Origin: an uncultured Planctomycetia bacterium
GTDB taxonomy: Bacteria > Omnitrophota > Gorgyraeia > Tantalellales > Tantalellaceae
Direction of reading: 5' to 3'
Assembly: GCA_964421015.1 (NCBI GenBank)
Contig: CAYQUS010000001.1
Span: 236,726-300,725, forward strand
DNA: 64,000 nt
The stretch's first letter is position 1; the number at the start of each line of letters is the position of its first letter. Positions 42,973-58,373 of this stretch are shown one piece after another. The position numbers and the translations under genes were made by a program. The notes beneath the pieces are model-generated. The model was not told the origin of the DNA. It did no database searches and saw nothing but the letters and a program-made list of their open reading frames with translations.

Positions 42973-42984
42973 GCGTCCTTCACC

Positions 42985-43046
42985 TTCCCTCTTTCCACTT
43001 CCTACTTTTTACTTCCTACTTCCTACTTCCTACTTTCTACTTCTAC
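42985..43046. repeat. Tandem heptamer micro-repeat (TTCCTAC)n on the plus strand, GTAGGAA on the minus strand. About 8-9 partly degenerate copies in the priA-fmt intergenic leader.
   Basis: Read directly: ttcctac tttttac ttcctac ttcctac ttcctac tttctac ttctac. Confidence 0.8.
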
Positions 43047-43068
43047 TCATCCACCCCATCCCCTATAC

Positions 43069-52105: not shown

Positions 52106-53179
52106 TTACTTGTTTTTTATCAGCTCAAGGCATGCTTCAGCTACCTTTTCCGGCCCTATATCCACCACGCACCTCTGTTCATAGGCGCATTCCGGAAGCT
52201 TGAAATTACCGTAACACGGCCGGCACGGAAGACCCGAAACCCTTATCACCCTGTGTCTCCCCTTTATCGGGAAAGGCCCGTACACAGTTTCGTCTACCGG
52301 CCCGAAAATAGAAACTGTCTTTGTGCCAAGCGCTACCGCTATATGAAGCGGCCCTCCGTCATTACAAAGAACTATACCGGCCCGGCTCATAATTCCCATA
52401 TATTCCCGGAGATCAAGACCGTTCTCAACGGCAGCCGGCGGAACGGACATTTCCGAAGCCACGTAATCGCAAAGTGCTTTTTCGGAAGGATCCCCCATAA
52501 TAACGGTCCGGATACCTCTTTCCTCGAGCGTTTCCGCTACCTTGGCAAAACCTTCCGCCCTCCATCTTTTCCTGGAAGCGTGGCGCCCCCAACTGGCCCC
52601 TCCCCCCGGTATTACGGCCGCGAATTTTTTATCCGCAAGCCCTTTTTTCCTGAGGTATTCGTCCGTCACAGACACCGTACCCTCGTCGGGAACTATCAGC
52701 ATTTCTTTTTCTTCCGCCTTTATACCCAGGCTCTCCATAACTTCAAGGTAATGTTCTATGACATGTTTGTCCCTGAACCCCGTAATTTTTACGCGGTGTG
52801 TGAGAAAGAGCCCTCTTCCCTTGTAATCCAGGCCGGCGCGGAGTTTTATCCCCGCCAAGGCGAAAAAAAGACCGAATTCCCTGGACATCGTAAAATCAAG
52901 CACAGCCTCGTACTTGGCTTTCTTAATTCCGTTAAAGAGCGAGTACAGCTCCCTGAACCATTCTATTTTGGACCTTTTCCAAAGAGAAACGTAATTATCC
53001 CTTTCGTAAACAAAAATATCATTCACACCTGGGATACATCGGACTATCTCGGATGCGCGCGCGTTGCAGAGATATCCCACGGATACTCCGGGAAACGCCC
53101 TTCTAAGATTAGCCGCGATAGGCGAGGTAAAAAGAACGTCGCCTATTCCGAAAATATTAGCGATAAGGATCTTTTTCAA
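52106..53179 (-). CDS. ADP-heptose:LPS heptosyltransferase (GT9)
   Basis: 357 aa. N-terminus KILIANIFGIGDVLFTSP and a GT9 C-terminal domain. Confidence 0.82.
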   Translation of the reverse strand: MKKILIANIFGIGDVLFTSPIAANLRRAFPGVSVGYLCNARASEIVRCIPGVNDIFVYERDNYVSLWKRSKIEWFRELYSLFNGIKKAKYEAVLDFTMSREFGLFFALAGIKLRAGLDYKGRGLFLTHRVKITGFRDKHVIEHYLEVMESLGIKAEEKEMLIVPDEGTVSVTDEYLRKKGLADKKFAAVIPGGGASWGRHASRKRWRAEGFAKVAETLEERGIRTVIMGDPSEKALCDYVASEMSVPPAAVENGLDLREYMGIMSRAGIVLCNDGGPLHIAVALGTKTVSIFGPVDETVYGPFPIKGRHRVIRVSGLPCRPCYGNFKLPECAYEQRCVVDIGPEKVAEACLELIKNK

Positions 53180-54395
53180 GCTGCTCTCCTCTGCCGGGGC
53201 CCGCGCTTGACGATAAAGTAACGCCTATTATGATATTAAAGAACACAGCAAGCGTAAGAGAAAAAAGATGCGTGTCTACCGCGCTATTCAGCAAAAAACC
53301 CACCGTTCCGCCGAACATACCCACTGAGAAATTTTTTTGATATCCCCCTGGCATTGACAATATGCCCTTAAGAGAACAGCCAAGAGCGGCTACCATAAAA
53401 CATATCATGAGCAGCGCCCCCGGGATACCTATTTCAGAAGCTGTCTGGAGGTAACAGTTATGCGCGTACCTGTCATCGATGTATCCCTGCGGCTTATAAT
53501 CCGGGAAATGCTTACTGAAGGTATTTACACCGAACCCCAGTACCGGATGTTCTTTTATCATATCGACGCTCCCCCTCCAGAGCATCACTCTTTCCCACGA
53601 AGTCCCGCTCTTAAGATCAGCCGTTTCGTATATCCTCTGTCGGGAAGAGGACGGCATTAAGATAAAAACCAAAACAAGTATCCCCATAAAAAGCGCAGCC
53701 GTTTTTTTGCCTTTCAAGATCCCGACAACCACGAATGCCGCGGCAAAAGACATCCATGCTCCGCGTGACCCGGTAAGAAAAAGACAAACCAAAGCTAAAG
53801 CCAGAACCGTAAAAAACAGCATTGTTCTTTTTATCCCGTTCTTCGGCGATAAAAGCATGGGAACAAACAAAGATCCTACCACTATCAGATAAGCCCCGAA
53901 ATCATTCGGGTGGATAAACGACGACGATATTCTCCTTAGATATTCGTCAGGGATAAGTGTCCTGTGCCGCAGAAGATCCTCGCCGGTTATGTATTGGAAT
54001 ATCCCGTTAACCGTGACAAGAAAGGTCGCGCCGGCAGCGGCATAGAGAAACTTCCTGGATTTTCCCTCCGGCCAAACCTGAGTGGAGACCGCCATAAAAA
54101 CAAGAGCGTATTGAAGAGCCTTGAAAATTCCCCTGAAACTTTCTTTCGGGTACTGAGAGTTAAAACACGAAAGAATAACCCATAAAAAATAAGCCCCAAG
54201 GAATATCGCCGGTAAAGACCGGAGTTTTCTGTAGTCGCCTTTAATTATCGTCCCCAGAACCCAGGCCGTTATAAGAATTGTGGAAACTATCTCGACCATA
54301 GAGTTCGAGAAGGTGATCACGAATATAAGAACGTAAACGCACCACTCGACCGCCTTATCCAGAAACCCCGTAATTTGCTCTCTCGTAACCCTCAT
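53157..54395 (-). CDS. O-antigen ligase/polymerase-like (Wzy_C) membrane protein, paralog of the gene at 62466-63716
   Basis: 412 aa polytopic protein. The periplasmic-loop motif HPVLGFGVNTF...YAHNCYLQTASEIGIPG is shared with the second copy. Confidence 0.75.
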   Translation of the reverse strand: MRVTREQITGFLDKAVEWCVYVLIFVITFSNSMVEIVSTILITAWVLGTIIKGDYRKLRSLPAIFLGAYFLWVILSCFNSQYPKESFRGIFKALQYALVFMAVSTQVWPEGKSRKFLYAAAGATFLVTVNGIFQYITGEDLLRHRTLIPDEYLRRISSSFIHPNDFGAYLIVVGSLFVPMLLSPKNGIKRTMLFFTVLALALVCLFLTGSRGAWMSFAAAFVVVGILKGKKTAALFMGILVLVFILMPSSSRQRIYETADLKSGTSWERVMLWRGSVDMIKEHPVLGFGVNTFSKHFPDYKPQGYIDDRYAHNCYLQTASEIGIPGALLMICFMVAALGCSLKGILSMPGGYQKNFSVGMFGGTVGFLLNSAVDTHLFSLTLAVFFNIIIGVTLSSSAGPGRGEQLEKDPYR

Positions 54396-54414
54396 GCTAC
54401 TCCTCTTCCGCTCT

Positions 54415-54492
54415 CAACCTGAACCTAAACCTCAACCTCAACCTTAACCTCTCCTTCCCCCTTCCTCCTTACTCCTTACTACTTTCTACTTA
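54415..54492. repeat. Tandem hexamer repeat (N)AACCT x6 on the plus strand, i.e. GAGGTT/AAGGTT on the minus strand. It is followed by a CT-rich tract and lies in the 5' leader of the ligase-like gene.
   Basis: Read directly: caacct gaacct aaacct caacct caacct taacct ctccttcccccttcctccttactcc. Confidence 0.8.
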
Positions 54493-54512
54493 GCTAATCC
54501 CTCCCCCCGCGC

Positions 54513-55898
54513 CTAATACGCGTTTTTCATAGCGAACACCGACATGAAAAGTATCTTTATGTCGAACATGATAGACCAGTTTTCAACGTAATAAAGGTCG
54601 TATTTTGTCCGCTCTTCTATCGAGGTGTTGCCTCTAAGGCCGTTAACCTGGGCCCAACCAGTCATTCCTGACTTGATCTTATGCCGGGCCATATACCTGG
54701 GTATGTCCTTTTTGAACTTACCCACAAAATGGGGCCTTTCAGGCCTTGGCCCCACAAGGCTCATCTCACCCTTCAGCACGTTTATAAGCTGTGGAAGCTC
54801 ATCTATATTGGTCCGCCTGAGAAAACTTCCTACCCGTGTCCTCCTGGGGTCATTCTCTTTTGCCCAAACCGGTCCCGTACCCTTTTCGGCATTCTCTATC
54901 ATGGTGCGGAACTTTATTATGGCGAACCTCCGGCCGTCTTCTCCCACCCTCTTCTGAAGATAAAACACCCTTCCGGGAGAACTTAACTTTATAAGGGCCG
55001 AAACTACAATGAATACCGGAGAGAGCGCCGCTATGGCTAAAAGGGAGATCAGAATATCCATTGCCCTTTTTATCACTCTGTTTATCCACTCAGCCAGCGG
55101 AGATTCCTTAAGGCCCAGGAGCGGGACTCCGTCTATTGTCCTCATATCCACCTGTGAGGTCACCATACCCAGAAGATCAGCAACTATCCTTACTTCAACA
55201 AGGTTTTTCTCGCACTCCAGTATTATCTCCATTATCTCAGACCTGGGAATATCGGCCTCAGTGACTATAACCTCGTCCACGTCATATTTTTGAAGAGCCG
55301 GAGCCAGATTTTCCATGCCCCCCTCCACAACTACATTGGCTACCTTTGAAGTGTCTTTAGACTTAACCCTAAGAACCGCCTTTATGTCATAGTCCCAGTG
55401 AGGATCCTCGGAAATATGATCTATAAGCCGGGGGACCATTTCGCCGTCACCTATAATGAGAAGGTTCCTGGACTTCTCCCTGAGCGCGAACCTTATCCGG
55501 TTGACCACAAAACGCCAGAGAGACAAAAAGAGGATGAGAACCCCCCACGCCAGGATAAGCATCCCTCTTGAAAACGAAAATTCCCTGTAAAGAAAGGTAC
55601 CCGCCATGAAGACCAGTATCCCTACAGAAACGCTCCTTACTATGGAGAAGAACTCATCGACGATAGAAAGCCTTGCCCTTACGGAATAAAGCTTGTCGGA
55701 CCTGATAAGAAAGACCATTATGAGGGTTAGGACAGGAAGAGTTCGGAAATAATGGCTCACGCTCGGTATACCGTAAGCGACGGGGAAAAACCCTGAACTG
55801 AACCTGAACCAGTATGAAAAAAGAAGCCCCGCGTTGACAGCAAGTATATCGCCCAAGACCAGGATAAGTATTACCCTGAAATCGTTCCTTATTCTCAT
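54513..55898 (-). CDS. Polyprenyl-phosphate sugar phosphotransferase (bacterial sugar transferase, WbaP/EpsL-like). This is the initiating enzyme.
   Basis: 461 aa. N-terminal TM segments and the C-terminal motif LVGPRPERPHFV...SGMTGWAQVNG. Confidence 0.85.
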   Translation of the reverse strand: MRIRNDFRVILILVLGDILAVNAGLLFSYWFRFSSGFFPVAYGIPSVSHYFRTLPVLTLIMVFLIRSDKLYSVRARLSIVDEFFSIVRSVSVGILVFMAGTFLYREFSFSRGMLILAWGVLILFLSLWRFVVNRIRFALREKSRNLLIIGDGEMVPRLIDHISEDPHWDYDIKAVLRVKSKDTSKVANVVVEGGMENLAPALQKYDVDEVIVTEADIPRSEIMEIILECEKNLVEVRIVADLLGMVTSQVDMRTIDGVPLLGLKESPLAEWINRVIKRAMDILISLLAIAALSPVFIVVSALIKLSSPGRVFYLQKRVGEDGRRFAIIKFRTMIENAEKGTGPVWAKENDPRRTRVGSFLRRTNIDELPQLINVLKGEMSLVGPRPERPHFVGKFKKDIPRYMARHKIKSGMTGWAQVNGLRGNTSIEERTKYDLYYVENWSIMFDIKILFMSVFAMKNAY

Positions 55899-57174: not shown

Positions 57175-57675
57175 CTATGATTCCTTTATCGCATAACGCC
57201 CCGCCGCCATAAGGTATCCCTTGGCCCGCTCCGCGAGCTTGTACCTGTTAACGATATCACAAAAAGCCTTACCGTGATTCGGCTCGACCAAGTGAGCCAT
57301 CTCATGGACGATCACATAGTCCCTTACCCATAGCGGCATTTCTTTTAGCCTTGAGGATATCTTTATCTTTCCCGTACGGCTGTCGCATGACCCGTAACGC
57401 TTATTTTGCCTCGATGAATATTCGATGGAAGAGACATTTAGTTTATTTCCGAAATATTTTTTATTTATCCGTGCCGCTACATCCCGTAGCGATCTCCCCT
57501 TCCTGAGATCATCTTTGGCCCGCCTCCGCTCAAACTTGTCCTTAAAACTCTCTATTATTCTGTCCAGATACTGTTTGTTTATTGCGGCCGGAGCGGCCAC
57601 CAAAAGCACACCTCCTTCCGTCCTGGCCGATACCGTTCTTTTCCTTTTCGAACTGTACGATATTTTTACTTCCAC
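57175..57675 (-). CDS. DUF45/YgjP-like zinc metallo-hydrolase (HExxH). The proposed GTG start at 57675 lies just after the upstream stop codon. The track TTG at 57795 would create a 105-nt same-strand overlap.
   Basis: WVRDYVIVHEMAHLVEPNHGKAF (HEMAH zinc motif). The N-terminus (M)EVKISYSSKRKRTVSARTEGGVLLVAAP is typical of DUF45. Confidence 0.65.
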   Translation of the reverse strand: MEVKISYSSKRKRTVSARTEGGVLLVAAPAAINKQYLDRIIESFKDKFERRRAKDDLRKGRSLRDVAARINKKYFGNKLNVSSIEYSSRQNKRYGSCDSRTGKIKISSRLKEMPLWVRDYVIVHEMAHLVEPNHGKAFCDIVNRYKLAERAKGYLMAAGRYAIKES

Positions 57676-57689
57676 ATCCGCCTTCCCAC

Positions 57690-58373
57690 TTAAAAAGAAA
57701 ATTTTAGTTTTGTCCCGAGAATATTGTAATCGGTCCAGATATCTTTCCCTTTGCTTGTTTGAAGGATATAGTGCACATCCAGCGTAAGACCCCAAAAAAG
57801 GGCAAACTCAAGTCCCGAGTAAAGCCTGTTACGATTAAACTCAAAGTGCCTTGAAAGATCAAAATAAAGCTCGTCGCCTGCATAAGGGGCGAACTGTAAC
57901 TTACCAATATTCATGGGGATCTTGGCCTTAAAGAAGTTTCGGTACCGCCAGTTATCCTTTTTATCCTCTATGTCCCTATATTCCAGCCTGCTGCGGTCGC
58001 TCAATTTAAAACCGAATAAGTCAAACTTAAGCGTACCGTCAAGTTTACCCACGTTTTCATACATCCAGCTTTTCTTACCTTTGTTGAATATCTGCCTGTA
58101 CCCGGCCTTTATCTCAAACCATTTTGCTATTCCCAAATAGGAAACGCTGAGGTCATAATGCTGATAATAAAGCTGACTTGCGCCTCCTCCCCATCTCAGT
58201 TCGTCCTCGAGTGATAGTTTCCAGTCCTTTGCGGCCTTCCACTCTATCTCGTTCACGTTCCAATACTGAAAATCCCCGTCTTCATAGGCCATCGCCGGAT
58301 GATCCCAAACACACCATACAATTACGGCTAAAATTATCCCGATTATTGATTTTATCGGTATTGAATTTTTCAT
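57690..58373 (-). CDS. DUF2490-like outer-membrane beta-barrel protein
   Basis: 227 aa with a signal peptide and alternating amphipathic beta strands rich in Y/W/F. It ends in ...KLKFSF, the aromatic C-terminal OMP signature. Confidence 0.6.
   Translation of the reverse strand: MKNSIPIKSIIGIILAVIVWCVWDHPAMAYEDGDFQYWNVNEIEWKAAKDWKLSLEDELRWGGGASQLYYQHYDLSVSYLGIAKWFEIKAGYRQIFNKGKKSWMYENVGKLDGTLKFDLFGFKLSDRSRLEYRDIEDKKDNWRYRNFFKAKIPMNIGKLQFAPYAGDELYFDLSRHFEFNRNRLYSGLEFALFWGLTLDVHYILQTSKGKDIWTDYNILGTKLKFSF

What the first reader, a model, noticed from the sequence alone, without database searches (positions are those of the whole stretch)
54396..54512. Second SD-like tandem array, (GAGGTT)x6 plus a polypurine tract, in the leader of the O-antigen-ligase-like gene
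Between the sugar-transferase stop and the ligase-like ATG, the coding strand reads GCGCGGGGGGAGGG-ATTAGCTAAGTAGAAAGTAGTAAGGAGTAAGGAGGAAGGGGGAAGGAGAGGTTAAGGTTGAGGTTGAGGTTTAGGTTCAGGTTGAG. That is six tandem hexamers matching the SD core GAGGT, preceded by GGAG-rich repeats. It shares a G-run plus (GAT)NAG..AGTAGAAAGTAG organisation with the fmt leader. Both elements occur between co-directional genes. Two similar composite elements suggest a small family of leader repeats specific to this organism.
Basis: seen in the sequence. Interest (0 to 1): 0.55.

Follow-up and report, generated by a model that had tools for sequence, protein, structure and literature searches.

The report
Length-variable repeat block before a ligase gene
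The spacer in front of an O-antigen-ligase-like gene of an uncultured Omnitrophota bacterium is a fast-changing block of 6- and 7-base tandem repeats whose copy number differs between near-identical strains. It is a local example of a heptamer-repeat habit common in this phylum, not a conserved regulatory signal.

Summary
Window 54396-54512 (minus strand) is a 117-nt untranslated spacer between a Bac_transf sugar transferase and a Wzy_C ligase-like gene. It reads G6 run, then six AAGKAGN heptamers, then 6.5 NAGGTT hexamers, then the true SD and ATG. The priA-fmt spacer (42973-43068) carries the same G-rich head and the same heptamer family.

In near-identical strains (98-99.5% DNA identity) the hexamer array has 6, 7, 7 and 9 units and the G run 6 or 5. 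These are the only indels in about 8 kb. The fmt array keeps its length but is a substitution hot spot.

The spacer has the densest cluster of SD-core words in the window, is C-poor, and is predicted unstructured. It has no promoter, terminator or Rfam match.

Relatives carry quite different 7-nt arrays, a different repeat, or no array in the same slot, with almost no SD-like words. Heptamer arrays occur at 17 per 100 kb in Omnitrophota loci against 1.2 in other phyla, often as two-armed hairpins.

Verdict: a slippage-driven compound simple-sequence repeat of the known long-SSR kind. It possibly tunes translation of the ligase. It is a new member of a known kind, of moderate interest.

The parts
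54513..55898 (-). Upstream cistron: undecaprenyl-phosphate sugar transferase (CoA_binding_3 + Bac_transf); its stop codon is TAG at 54513-54515
   Evidence: Pfam E 1e-70; ORF list
54499..54512 (-). G-rich head GCGCGGGGGGAGGG. The G6 run at 54503-54508 is G5 in strain L090
   Evidence: Sequence; alignments; indel map
54451..54492 (-). Heptamer array AAGKAGN x6 (AAGTAGA, AAGTAGT, AAGGAGT, AAGGAGG, AAGGGGG, AAGGAGA). Nearly invariant among 4 strains
   Evidence: TRF; pattern statistics; alignment; 0-1 mismatches
54413..54451 (-). Hexamer array NAGGTT x6.5. Length-polymorphic: 6, 7, 7 and 9 units in four strains
   Evidence: TRF; pattern statistics; alignments; indel map
54400..54405 (-). Probable genuine Shine-Dalgarno GAGGAG, 4 nt before the ATG at 54393-54395
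   Evidence: Sequence; 21 of 29 genes in the window have a comparable SD
53157..54395 (-). Downstream cistron: Wzy_C (O-antigen ligase/polymerase-like) membrane protein
   Evidence: Pfam E 6e-27; identical to NCBI member P0101 of a cluster named O-antigen ligase family protein, Candidatus Omnitrophota
42973..43068 (-). Sister element: the priA-fmt spacer, with G-rich head GGGGATGGGGTGG and AAGTAGG-type heptamers x8 (array 42993-43047). A substitution hot spot with constant length
   Evidence: Sequence; TRF; alignments; hot-spot statistics

Best explanation
The spacer is a compound simple-sequence repeat (a long SSR or VNTR) made of a G run, an AAGKAGN heptamer array and a NAGGTT hexamer array. 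It lies in the untranslated intercistronic leader of a Wzy_C gene inside a surface-glycan operon.

Shown:
- The hexamer array gains and loses whole units, and the G run gains and loses single bases, between near-identical strains. The fmt sister array turns over unit variants. This is the behaviour expected of replication slippage and intra-array exchange.
- The element is one instance of a phylum-wide tendency of Omnitrophota genomes to fill intergenic spacers with 7-nt (rarely 6- or 8-nt) arrays whose unit differs from genome to genome.

Inferred:
- No promoter or terminator consensus lies in the spacer, so the array is probably transcribed within a polycistronic mRNA.
- As RNA it would be an unstructured, very C-poor stretch loaded with anti-SD-complementary words just upstream of the real SD.
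- Its most likely effect is therefore on ribosome capture or re-initiation at the ligase cistron. Unit number would act as a heritable, strain-specific tuning knob, not as an essential signal.
For: - Arrays are real and far beyond chance.
- Four strains at 98.3-99.5% DNA identity carry 6, 7, 7 and 9 hexamers and G6/G5/G6/G6. Two independent assemblies, L092 and L093, give the same 7-unit allele.
- These are the only indels in about 8 kb of well-aligned sequence.
- The fmt array has 8 mismatches in 55 nt against 25 in 2419 outside (P 1.6e-7), and 3 in 55 against 22 in 5147 (P 0.002).
- Census: 60 arrays in 290 kb of Omnitrophota loci, 50 of them period 7. Control phyla have 23 in 483 kb, 6 of them period 7. 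Shuffled sequences give about 1.
- No promoter or terminator consensus in the spacer, while other window spacers show clear TTGACA-N17-TATAAT sites.
- RNA fold is close to shuffled sequence, z -1.5 and -1.4.
- C content is 5% and 2% against 21% background.
- SD-core density is the highest in the window.
- Heptamer preference and a slippage origin for long SSRs are established in the literature (Mrazek 2007, as summarised in PMC4679880 and PMC4692102).
Against: - The repeats are imperfect (84% matches, variable first base), which should slow slippage.
- The heptamer block is invariant among the four strains, and the fmt array keeps exactly 96 nt in three strains. This hints at constraint that a pure slippage model does not predict.
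- No expression data exist, so the translational effect is inference only.
- Many relatives express the same gene pair with a 10-30 nt spacer and no array. Any effect is therefore dispensable.
- Only 64 kb of this genome was examined.
Confidence: 0.62

Rival explanations
1. Neutral microsatellite. The arrays are selectively irrelevant by-products of polymerase slippage in one of the few long spacers of a compact genome, with no effect on either gene.
For: - Unit sequence is not conserved among relatives, and many relatives lack any array in the slot.
- Copy number drifts between strains.
- Arrays are distributed patchily among genomes.
Against: - The fmt slot holds a purine AAG-type heptamer array in a relative whose Fmt protein is only 68% identical.
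- The heptamer block is invariant while the hexamers vary.
- Extreme C depletion and sense-strand purine bias occur in both window elements.
- The genome is otherwise tightly packed.
Confidence: 0.25
2. Contingency (phase-variable or 'volume-knob') locus. The SSR evolved to switch or grade expression of a surface-glycan enzyme. Known parallels are the ATCTTTC heptamers in the H. influenzae hmw 5'-UTR and the AGAT repeats of Moraxella uspA2.
For: - The SSR sits in the leader of a Wzy_C surface-polysaccharide gene.
- Both the unit number and a poly-G tract vary between close strains.
- Known precedents for 5'-UTR SSR control are described in PMC12721329 and PMC4679880.
Against: - The sister array precedes the housekeeping fmt gene and does not vary in length.
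- The repeats are imperfect.
- No hairpin partner like the hmw G-rich arm is present.
- The arrays do not alter SD-ATG spacing or any promoter spacing.
- Within-population switching has not been shown.
Confidence: 0.2
3. Dedicated SD-like ribosome standby or translational-enhancer family. Tandem anti-SD-complementary units are selected to hold 30S or scanning 70S ribosomes between cistrons.
For: - SD-core words reach 11 per 100 nt, the maximum in the window.
- The RNA is predicted single-stranded.
- The organism uses canonical SDs.
- The element sits 7 nt upstream of the real SD.
Against: - Orthologous leaders in relatives have about 0 SD-like words.
- Unit number is not held constant.
- Upstream SD-like sites could equally act as decoys.
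- Only two instances were found in 64 kb.
Confidence: 0.15
4. Binding platform for an oligomeric RNA-binding regulator. Phased (G/U)AG or GGA triplets every 6-7 nt would suit a TRAP-like, HutP-like or CsrA-like protein that represses or activates the downstream cistron.
For: - NAG triplets are spaced by 3 nt across the hexamer block. UAG recurs about every 7 nt (one 6-nt step), six times, in the fmt leader.
- My own reading of the sequences counts about 8 GGA motifs per leader. No tool counted these.
- CsrA, S1 and Csp were proposed for TAACTGA repeats in PMC4679880.
Against: - No cognate protein has been identified.
- Motifs are not conserved in relatives.
- The resemblance to TRAP and HutP sites is recalled from memory, not tested.
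Confidence: 0.08
5. Non-B nucleic-acid structure. This would be a two-tetrad G-quadruplex from (GGNNNN)n, or H-DNA from the polypurine mirror GAGGAAGGGGGAAGGAG, acting on transcription or replication.
For: - G-rich sense strand with regular GG spacing.
- Precedent of GGGNATC heptamer arrays forming G4 in Xanthomonas and Nostoc (PMC4692102).
Against: - Only GG tracts are present in the hexamer block.
- Units in relatives are not G-rich.
- No biophysical data exist.
Confidence: 0.05

Closest known systems
Long simple sequence repeats (LSSR) of prokaryotes with heptanucleotide preference (Mrazek et al. 2007, as summarised in PMC4679880 and PMC4692102)
   Same: Head-to-tail 6-7-nt units, longer than chance, confined to non-coding DNA, variable in copy number. 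Heptamers are by far the commonest period in the lineage (50 of 60 arrays).
   Different: I found no paper describing this in Omnitrophota. Here the block is compound (G run + heptamers + hexamers) and sits inside an operon.
TAACTGA heptamer direct repeats of marine Beggiatoaceae (PMC4679880)
   Same: Intergenic heptamer arrays directly upstream of start codons of unrelated genes, including housekeeping ones. A role in translation was proposed.
   Different: The unit sequence is different and absent here. Beggiatoaceae use one unit genome-wide, whereas Omnitrophota use many units per genome.
GGGNATC / GGGGAYT heptamer arrays of Xanthomonas and Nostoc, and cyanobacterial STRR heptamers (PMC4692102; STRR from my own knowledge of Mazel et al. 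1990)
   Same: Heptamer arrays over-represented between co-directional ORFs, transcribed, variable in unit number.
   Different: Those units are absent here. There is no preference for four G tracts.
5'-UTR SSR control of surface proteins: H. influenzae hmw (ATCTTTC)n (PMC12721329); Moraxella uspA2 (AGAT)n and uspA1 poly-G (cited in PMC4679880)
   Same: An SSR between the upstream signals and the start codon of a cell-surface gene, with unit number differing between strains. A poly-G tract is also present.
   Different: The hmw repeats act through a long hairpin with a G-rich arm cut by RNase III. The window's leader has no complementary arm and is unstructured. No expression data exist.
REP/BIME and REPIN-type intercistronic palindromic elements (PMC3116915)
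   Same: Short dispersed elements in spacers between co-directional genes. The two-armed heptamer hairpins of relatives (L100, L010) resemble them and recur with a shared loop.
   Different: The window's two elements are one-armed and not palindromic. The arms of the relatives' elements are tandem arrays, which REPs are not.

Membership tests
Long simple sequence repeat / VNTR | Head-to-tail copies of a 1-11-nt unit | tested here: met
   TRF finds period 6 x6.5 and period 7 x6
Long simple sequence repeat / VNTR | Longer than expected by chance in this genome | tested here: met
   0.02 and 0.01 matches expected from shuffles, against 4 and 9 found
Long simple sequence repeat / VNTR | Unit-number variation between close strains | tested here: met
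   6, 7, 7 and 9 hexamers in strains at 98.3-98.8% DNA identity over the aligned ligase-locus segments. These are the only indels in about 8 kb
Phase-variable contingency locus | SSR in the promoter, 5'-UTR or ORF of a surface-structure gene | tested here: met
   The array ends 18 nt before the ATG of a Wzy_C gene
Phase-variable contingency locus | Perfect or near-perfect repeats that slip at high frequency within a population | tested here: inconclusive
   Units match at 84% with a variable first base. Variation is seen between strains only. Within-sample heterogeneity needs raw reads
Phase-variable contingency locus | Unit number changes expression of the gene | not testable with these tools
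   No expression data or culture available
SD-like standby / translational enhancer leader | Complementarity to the anti-SD, in single-stranded RNA, next to the start site | tested here: met
   11 SD-core 5-mers per 100 nt, the maximum in the window. Predicted unstructured
SD-like standby / translational enhancer leader | SD-like content conserved in orthologous leaders | tested here: not met
   0 to 3 SD-core words in the same slot of 13 relatives; 8 of the 13 have none
Named heptamer families (TAACTGA, GGGNATC/GGGGAYT, STRR1-3, hmw ATCTTTC) | The family's unit sequence in tandem | tested here: not met
   No tandem copy of any of them on either strand of the window
hmw-type 5'-UTR SSR hairpin | The repeat arm pairs with a complementary arm to form a long RNase III hairpin | tested here: not met
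   MFE z -1.5. No inverted partner within 4 kb or in the window
Described RNA families (Rfam 15) | Covariance-model match | tested here: not met
   No hit at gathering score in the window and none at E<=1 in either spacer
TRAP / HutP-type triplet-repeat binding site | Phased (G/U)AG triplets | tested here: inconclusive
   NAG recurs every 6 nt in the hexamer block. UAG recurs about every 7 nt in the fmt leader. The spacing rules are recalled from memory
TRAP / HutP-type triplet-repeat binding site | Cognate ring-shaped RNA-binding protein encoded in the genome | not tested
   Only 64 kb of the genome is available

The most novel reading that the evidence does not exclude
Omnitrophota may carry an undescribed, phylum-wide system of intercistronic elements built from genome-specific heptamer arrays. 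These would be one-armed and unstructured in this window, and two-armed long hairpins in relatives. In one relative 9 to 10 of 11 spacers of a glycan operon are such hairpins (z -3.8 to -8), some sharing a loop sequence. The elements would spread or be regenerated within genomes and act at the RNA level on processing, stability, polarity or translation of operon mRNAs. The window's two leaders would be members whose units happen to mimic the SD.
Probability: 0.3. Interest if true: 0.65.

Novelty: new member of a known kind. Interest (0 to 1): 0.42.

Why it matters
- It gives a concrete, sequence-verified hypervariable locus in an uncultured, possibly host-dependent nanobacterial phylum. The locus lies directly in front of a surface-glycan gene, which makes it a natural marker for strain typing.
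- It is a candidate for heritable tuning of surface chemistry.
- The window led to a broader observation: Omnitrophota are strongly enriched in intergenic heptamer arrays, about 14-fold over other phyla at the same locus type, and these are often organised as array-against-array hairpins.
- If those arrays prove functional, they would add a new architecture to the short list of bacterial intercistronic elements.
- They would also bear on the unexplained preference of bacterial long SSRs for 7-nt units.

Tried and rejected
- **Known RNA or tRNA:** none found.
- **Promoter or intrinsic terminator in the spacer:** none, although other spacers of the window show textbook sigma-70 sites.
- **Hairpin or antisense partner for the arrays in the window:** none.
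- **Leader peptide:** the only open frame through the hexamers reads (Arg-Leu/Phe)n, could start only at TTG, and stops 1 nt before the ATG. That frame is open by necessity because AGG TTN is never a stop codon, and AGG is the commonest Arg codon here. There is therefore no rare-codon attenuation argument. I kept this at about 3%.
- **Conservation of the unit in relatives:** rejected.
- **Looking up the window's own proteins:** the ligase and transferase are not on record, and P0101, which is identical to the window's ligase, could not be looked up.
- **Metagenome scan for closer relatives:** the best was 67% identity.
- **Polymorphism in a second species:** L100 and L101 are 100% identical and so uninformative.
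- **Array position relative to start codons across the census:** I did not test this formally, because longest-ORF start calls bias that distance.
- **Elhai et al. 2008 on small dispersed repeats in cyanobacteria:** not found in the held library, so not used as evidence.

Full report
**What is there.** On the minus strand, window 54396-54512 is a 117-nt spacer. It runs from the TAG stop of a 461-aa CoA_binding_3 + Bac_transf sugar transferase (54513-55898) to the ATG of a 412-aa Wzy_C O-antigen-ligase-like protein (53157-54395).

It reads GCGC-GGGGGG-AGGG-ATTAGCT, then six heptamers (AAGTAGA, AAGTAGT, AAGGAGT, AAGGAGG, AAGGGGG, AAGGAGA). Six and a half hexamers follow (GAGGTT, AAGGTT, GAGGTT, GAGGTT, TAGGTT, CAGGTT, GAG). 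It ends AGCGGAA-GAGGAG-TAGC-ATG.

TRF reports both arrays. Degenerate versions of each occur only here, or here and in the fmt leader. Shuffles give 0.02 and 0.01 expected matches. The 'polypurine tract' is itself a heptamer array, and the hexamer is NAGGTT, not GAGGTT.

**The sister element.** The 96-nt priA-fmt spacer (42973-43068) starts with a G-rich head (GGGGATGGGGTGG). It continues with about eight AAGTAGG-type heptamers that run into the fmt SD. The two spacers align in register over roughly the first 60 nt. They are the only spacers of 45 nt or more between co-directional genes in the window that consist of repeats. Several other spacers show textbook TTGACA-N17-TATAAT promoters.

**Setting and physical properties.**
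- The window comes from a Candidatus Omnitrophota genome. Its ligase is identical to an NCBI protein on a 524,544-nt contig, and the cluster is named accordingly.
- Nearly all genes are on the minus strand, and canonical SDs precede 21 of 29 genes checked.
- The spacer has no promoter-like or terminator-like site and no Rfam match even at E<=1.
- As RNA it folds no better than shuffled sequence, z -1.5; the fmt leader gives z -1.4.
- Sense-strand C content is 5% and 2%, against 21% for the window.
- It contains the densest cluster of SD-core 5-mers in the whole window: 11 per 100 nt, against a mean of 0.96 and a next-best of 7.
- The genuine SD (GAGGAG, 4 nt before the ATG) lies downstream of the arrays.

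A protein search found a 99%-identical ligase. Exact look-ups then gave three further copies of the locus: L090 (Logan SRR27544757), L092 (ERZ795059) and L093 (ERZ27257428).

| Strain | Hexamer units | G run |
|---|---|---|
| Window | 6 | G6 |
| L092 | 7 | G6 |
| L093 | 7 | G6 |
| L090 | 9 | G5 |

The flanks are 98.3-98.8% identical to the window. The heptamer block differs by at most one base. In about 8 kb of well-aligned sequence against L090, the only indels are these two. L092 and L093 are independent assemblies with the same allele, and arrays of 39-57 nt are shorter than typical short reads (my inference; read lengths were not checked). An assembly artefact is therefore unlikely.

For the fmt leader, three strains (window, L091, L094) all have 96 nt. 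However, the array carries 3 mismatches in 55 nt against 22 in 5147 outside (P 0.002), and 8 in 55 against 25 in 2419 (P 1.6e-7). Both arrays therefore evolve faster than their surroundings. One does so by gain and loss of units, the other by turnover of unit variants.

**Relatives.** About 40 Omnitrophota loci keep the transferase-ligase gene pair. The slot between the two genes varies widely.

| Slot content | Loci |
|---|---|
| 10-40 nt, no array | L001, L003, L009, L011, L013, L016-L018, L022, L025, L080 |
| TAGGCTG array | L004 |
| AGAGTCA array | L005 |
| AAAGTCN array plus its inverted copy | L010, L081 |
| TAAGTTG array | L020 |
| TAAGCTG array | L083 |
| AAAGGTT array | L082 |
| CGTTTNT / AAACGAN array pair | L084 |
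| Several unit types | L014, L019 |
| A different repeat with core CTCGCAATGACGG | L079, L098/L099 |

SD-core words are essentially absent from these arrays. The window's own units are found only in its own species.

The priA-fmt slot of the 68%-identical relative does carry a purine heptamer array of the same AAG type, (GGTAAGG)x6 running up to the ATG.

A TRF census gives 60 arrays (period 4-12, at least 3 copies) in 290 kb of Omnitrophota loci, 50 of them period 7. Other phyla fetched with the same query have 23 arrays in 483 kb, 6 of them period 7. Shuffled sequence gives about one. Density is patchy, from 0 to about 1 per kb. The window's genome is at the low end.

In an array-rich relative (L100), 9 to 10 of the 11 intercistronic spacers of 80 nt or more in the glycan cluster are hairpins whose two arms are complementary heptamer arrays. 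MFE ranges from -31 to -50 kcal/mol and z from -3.8 to -8.1. Three of them share a loop sequence.

**Interpretation.** The element is a compound, slippage-prone simple-sequence repeat. The general kind is known: long SSRs of 5-11 nt with a marked preference for heptamers, attributed to polymerase slippage. Described families include TAACTGA in Beggiatoaceae, GGGNATC in Xanthomonas and Nostoc, and the STRR heptamers of cyanobacteria (PMC4679880, PMC4692102). I found no description of such repeats for Omnitrophota.

What the array does is inferred, not shown. It is probably transcribed within the operon mRNA. There it would form an unstructured, C-poor stretch rich in anti-SD-complementary words, just 5' of the true SD. 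The most plausible consequence is an effect on ribosome capture or re-initiation at the ligase cistron, with unit number as a heritable strain-level variable.

The closest functional precedents are SSRs in the 5'-UTRs of surface-protein genes: hmw ATCTTTC heptamers, uspA2 AGAT and uspA1 poly-G (PMC12721329, PMC4679880). The hmw mechanism needs a long hairpin, which the window's leader lacks.

Three points argue against a dedicated, conserved 'SD-like leader family':
- The orthologous arrays in relatives lack SD-like content.
- Many relatives dispense with any array.
- Unit number is variable.

Three points argue against pure neutrality:
- The heptamer block is invariant.
- The fmt spacer length is constant.
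- A purine AAG-type array persists in the fmt slot across genus-level divergence.

**Verdict.** The phenomenon is phylum-wide and belongs to a known class. I rate it a new member of a known kind, of moderate interest. The more novel lead is the array-against-array hairpins that fill operon spacers in related Omnitrophota.

Noticed in passing
L100 1758-1851, 6022-6139, 7223-7367, 9907-10000, 14406-14514, 16105-16198, 17779-17880, 20997-21133; L010 2630-2775: In array-rich Omnitrophota relatives almost every intercistronic spacer of the glycan cluster is a long hairpin whose two arms are complementary heptamer arrays (z -3.8 to -8.1 in L100, -5.1 in L010). Three L100 copies share the loop GCTTGGAC..GAGTTCGTTAAAC, so they look like a dispersed element family.
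   Followed up: partly
L079 5-224; L098 4499-4600; L099 2812-2824; L014 5494-5506; L019 (4 sites); L082 309-321: A second dispersed intergenic repeat with core CTCGCAATGACGG(GGG). It forms four tandem ~69-nt copies upstream of the ligase in L079. It fills the transferase-ligase spacer of the closest sampled species (ligase 66%, Fmt 68% identical). It is absent from the window.
   Followed up: partly
L095 9957-10000 (also L096, L097): The priA-fmt spacer of a relative with 68% Fmt identity is a (GGTAAGG/AAGGGGT)x6 array running up to the ATG. It is the same purine AAG-type heptamer as the window's fmt leader, so this slot has kept an array across genus-level divergence.
   Followed up: partly
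window 57250-58290: Identity to the near-identical strain L090 falls from about 99% to about 91% beyond about 57250 (SprT/YgjP-like and DUF2490 genes), with small indels. This suggests a recombined or variable segment next to the glycan cluster.
   Followed up: no
window 54509-54523 (minus strand): A 5-bp G+C-rich hairpin (ACGCG UAUUA GGCGC... fold CGCGU/GCGCG) spans the transferase stop codon, immediately before the G run.
   Followed up: no
window 55792-55810: A short TTCAGG x3 repeat (minus strand) lies inside the 5' end of the transferase ORF and resembles the CAGGTT hexamer unit. It shows no length difference in strain L090.
   Followed up: no
L094 1-97: The Logan contig of a third strain begins exactly at the start of the priA-fmt spacer. 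The assembly therefore breaks at the repeat, possibly because of strain heterogeneity there.
   Followed up: no
L040 3822-3855; L073 4292-4328: Two non-Omnitrophota control loci (Ardenticatenaceae and a Nitrospirae MAG) also carry heptamer arrays next to the sugar-transferase gene: TAGAGTG x5 upstream of it in L040 and TTATCAG x5.3 downstream of it in L073.
   Followed up: no
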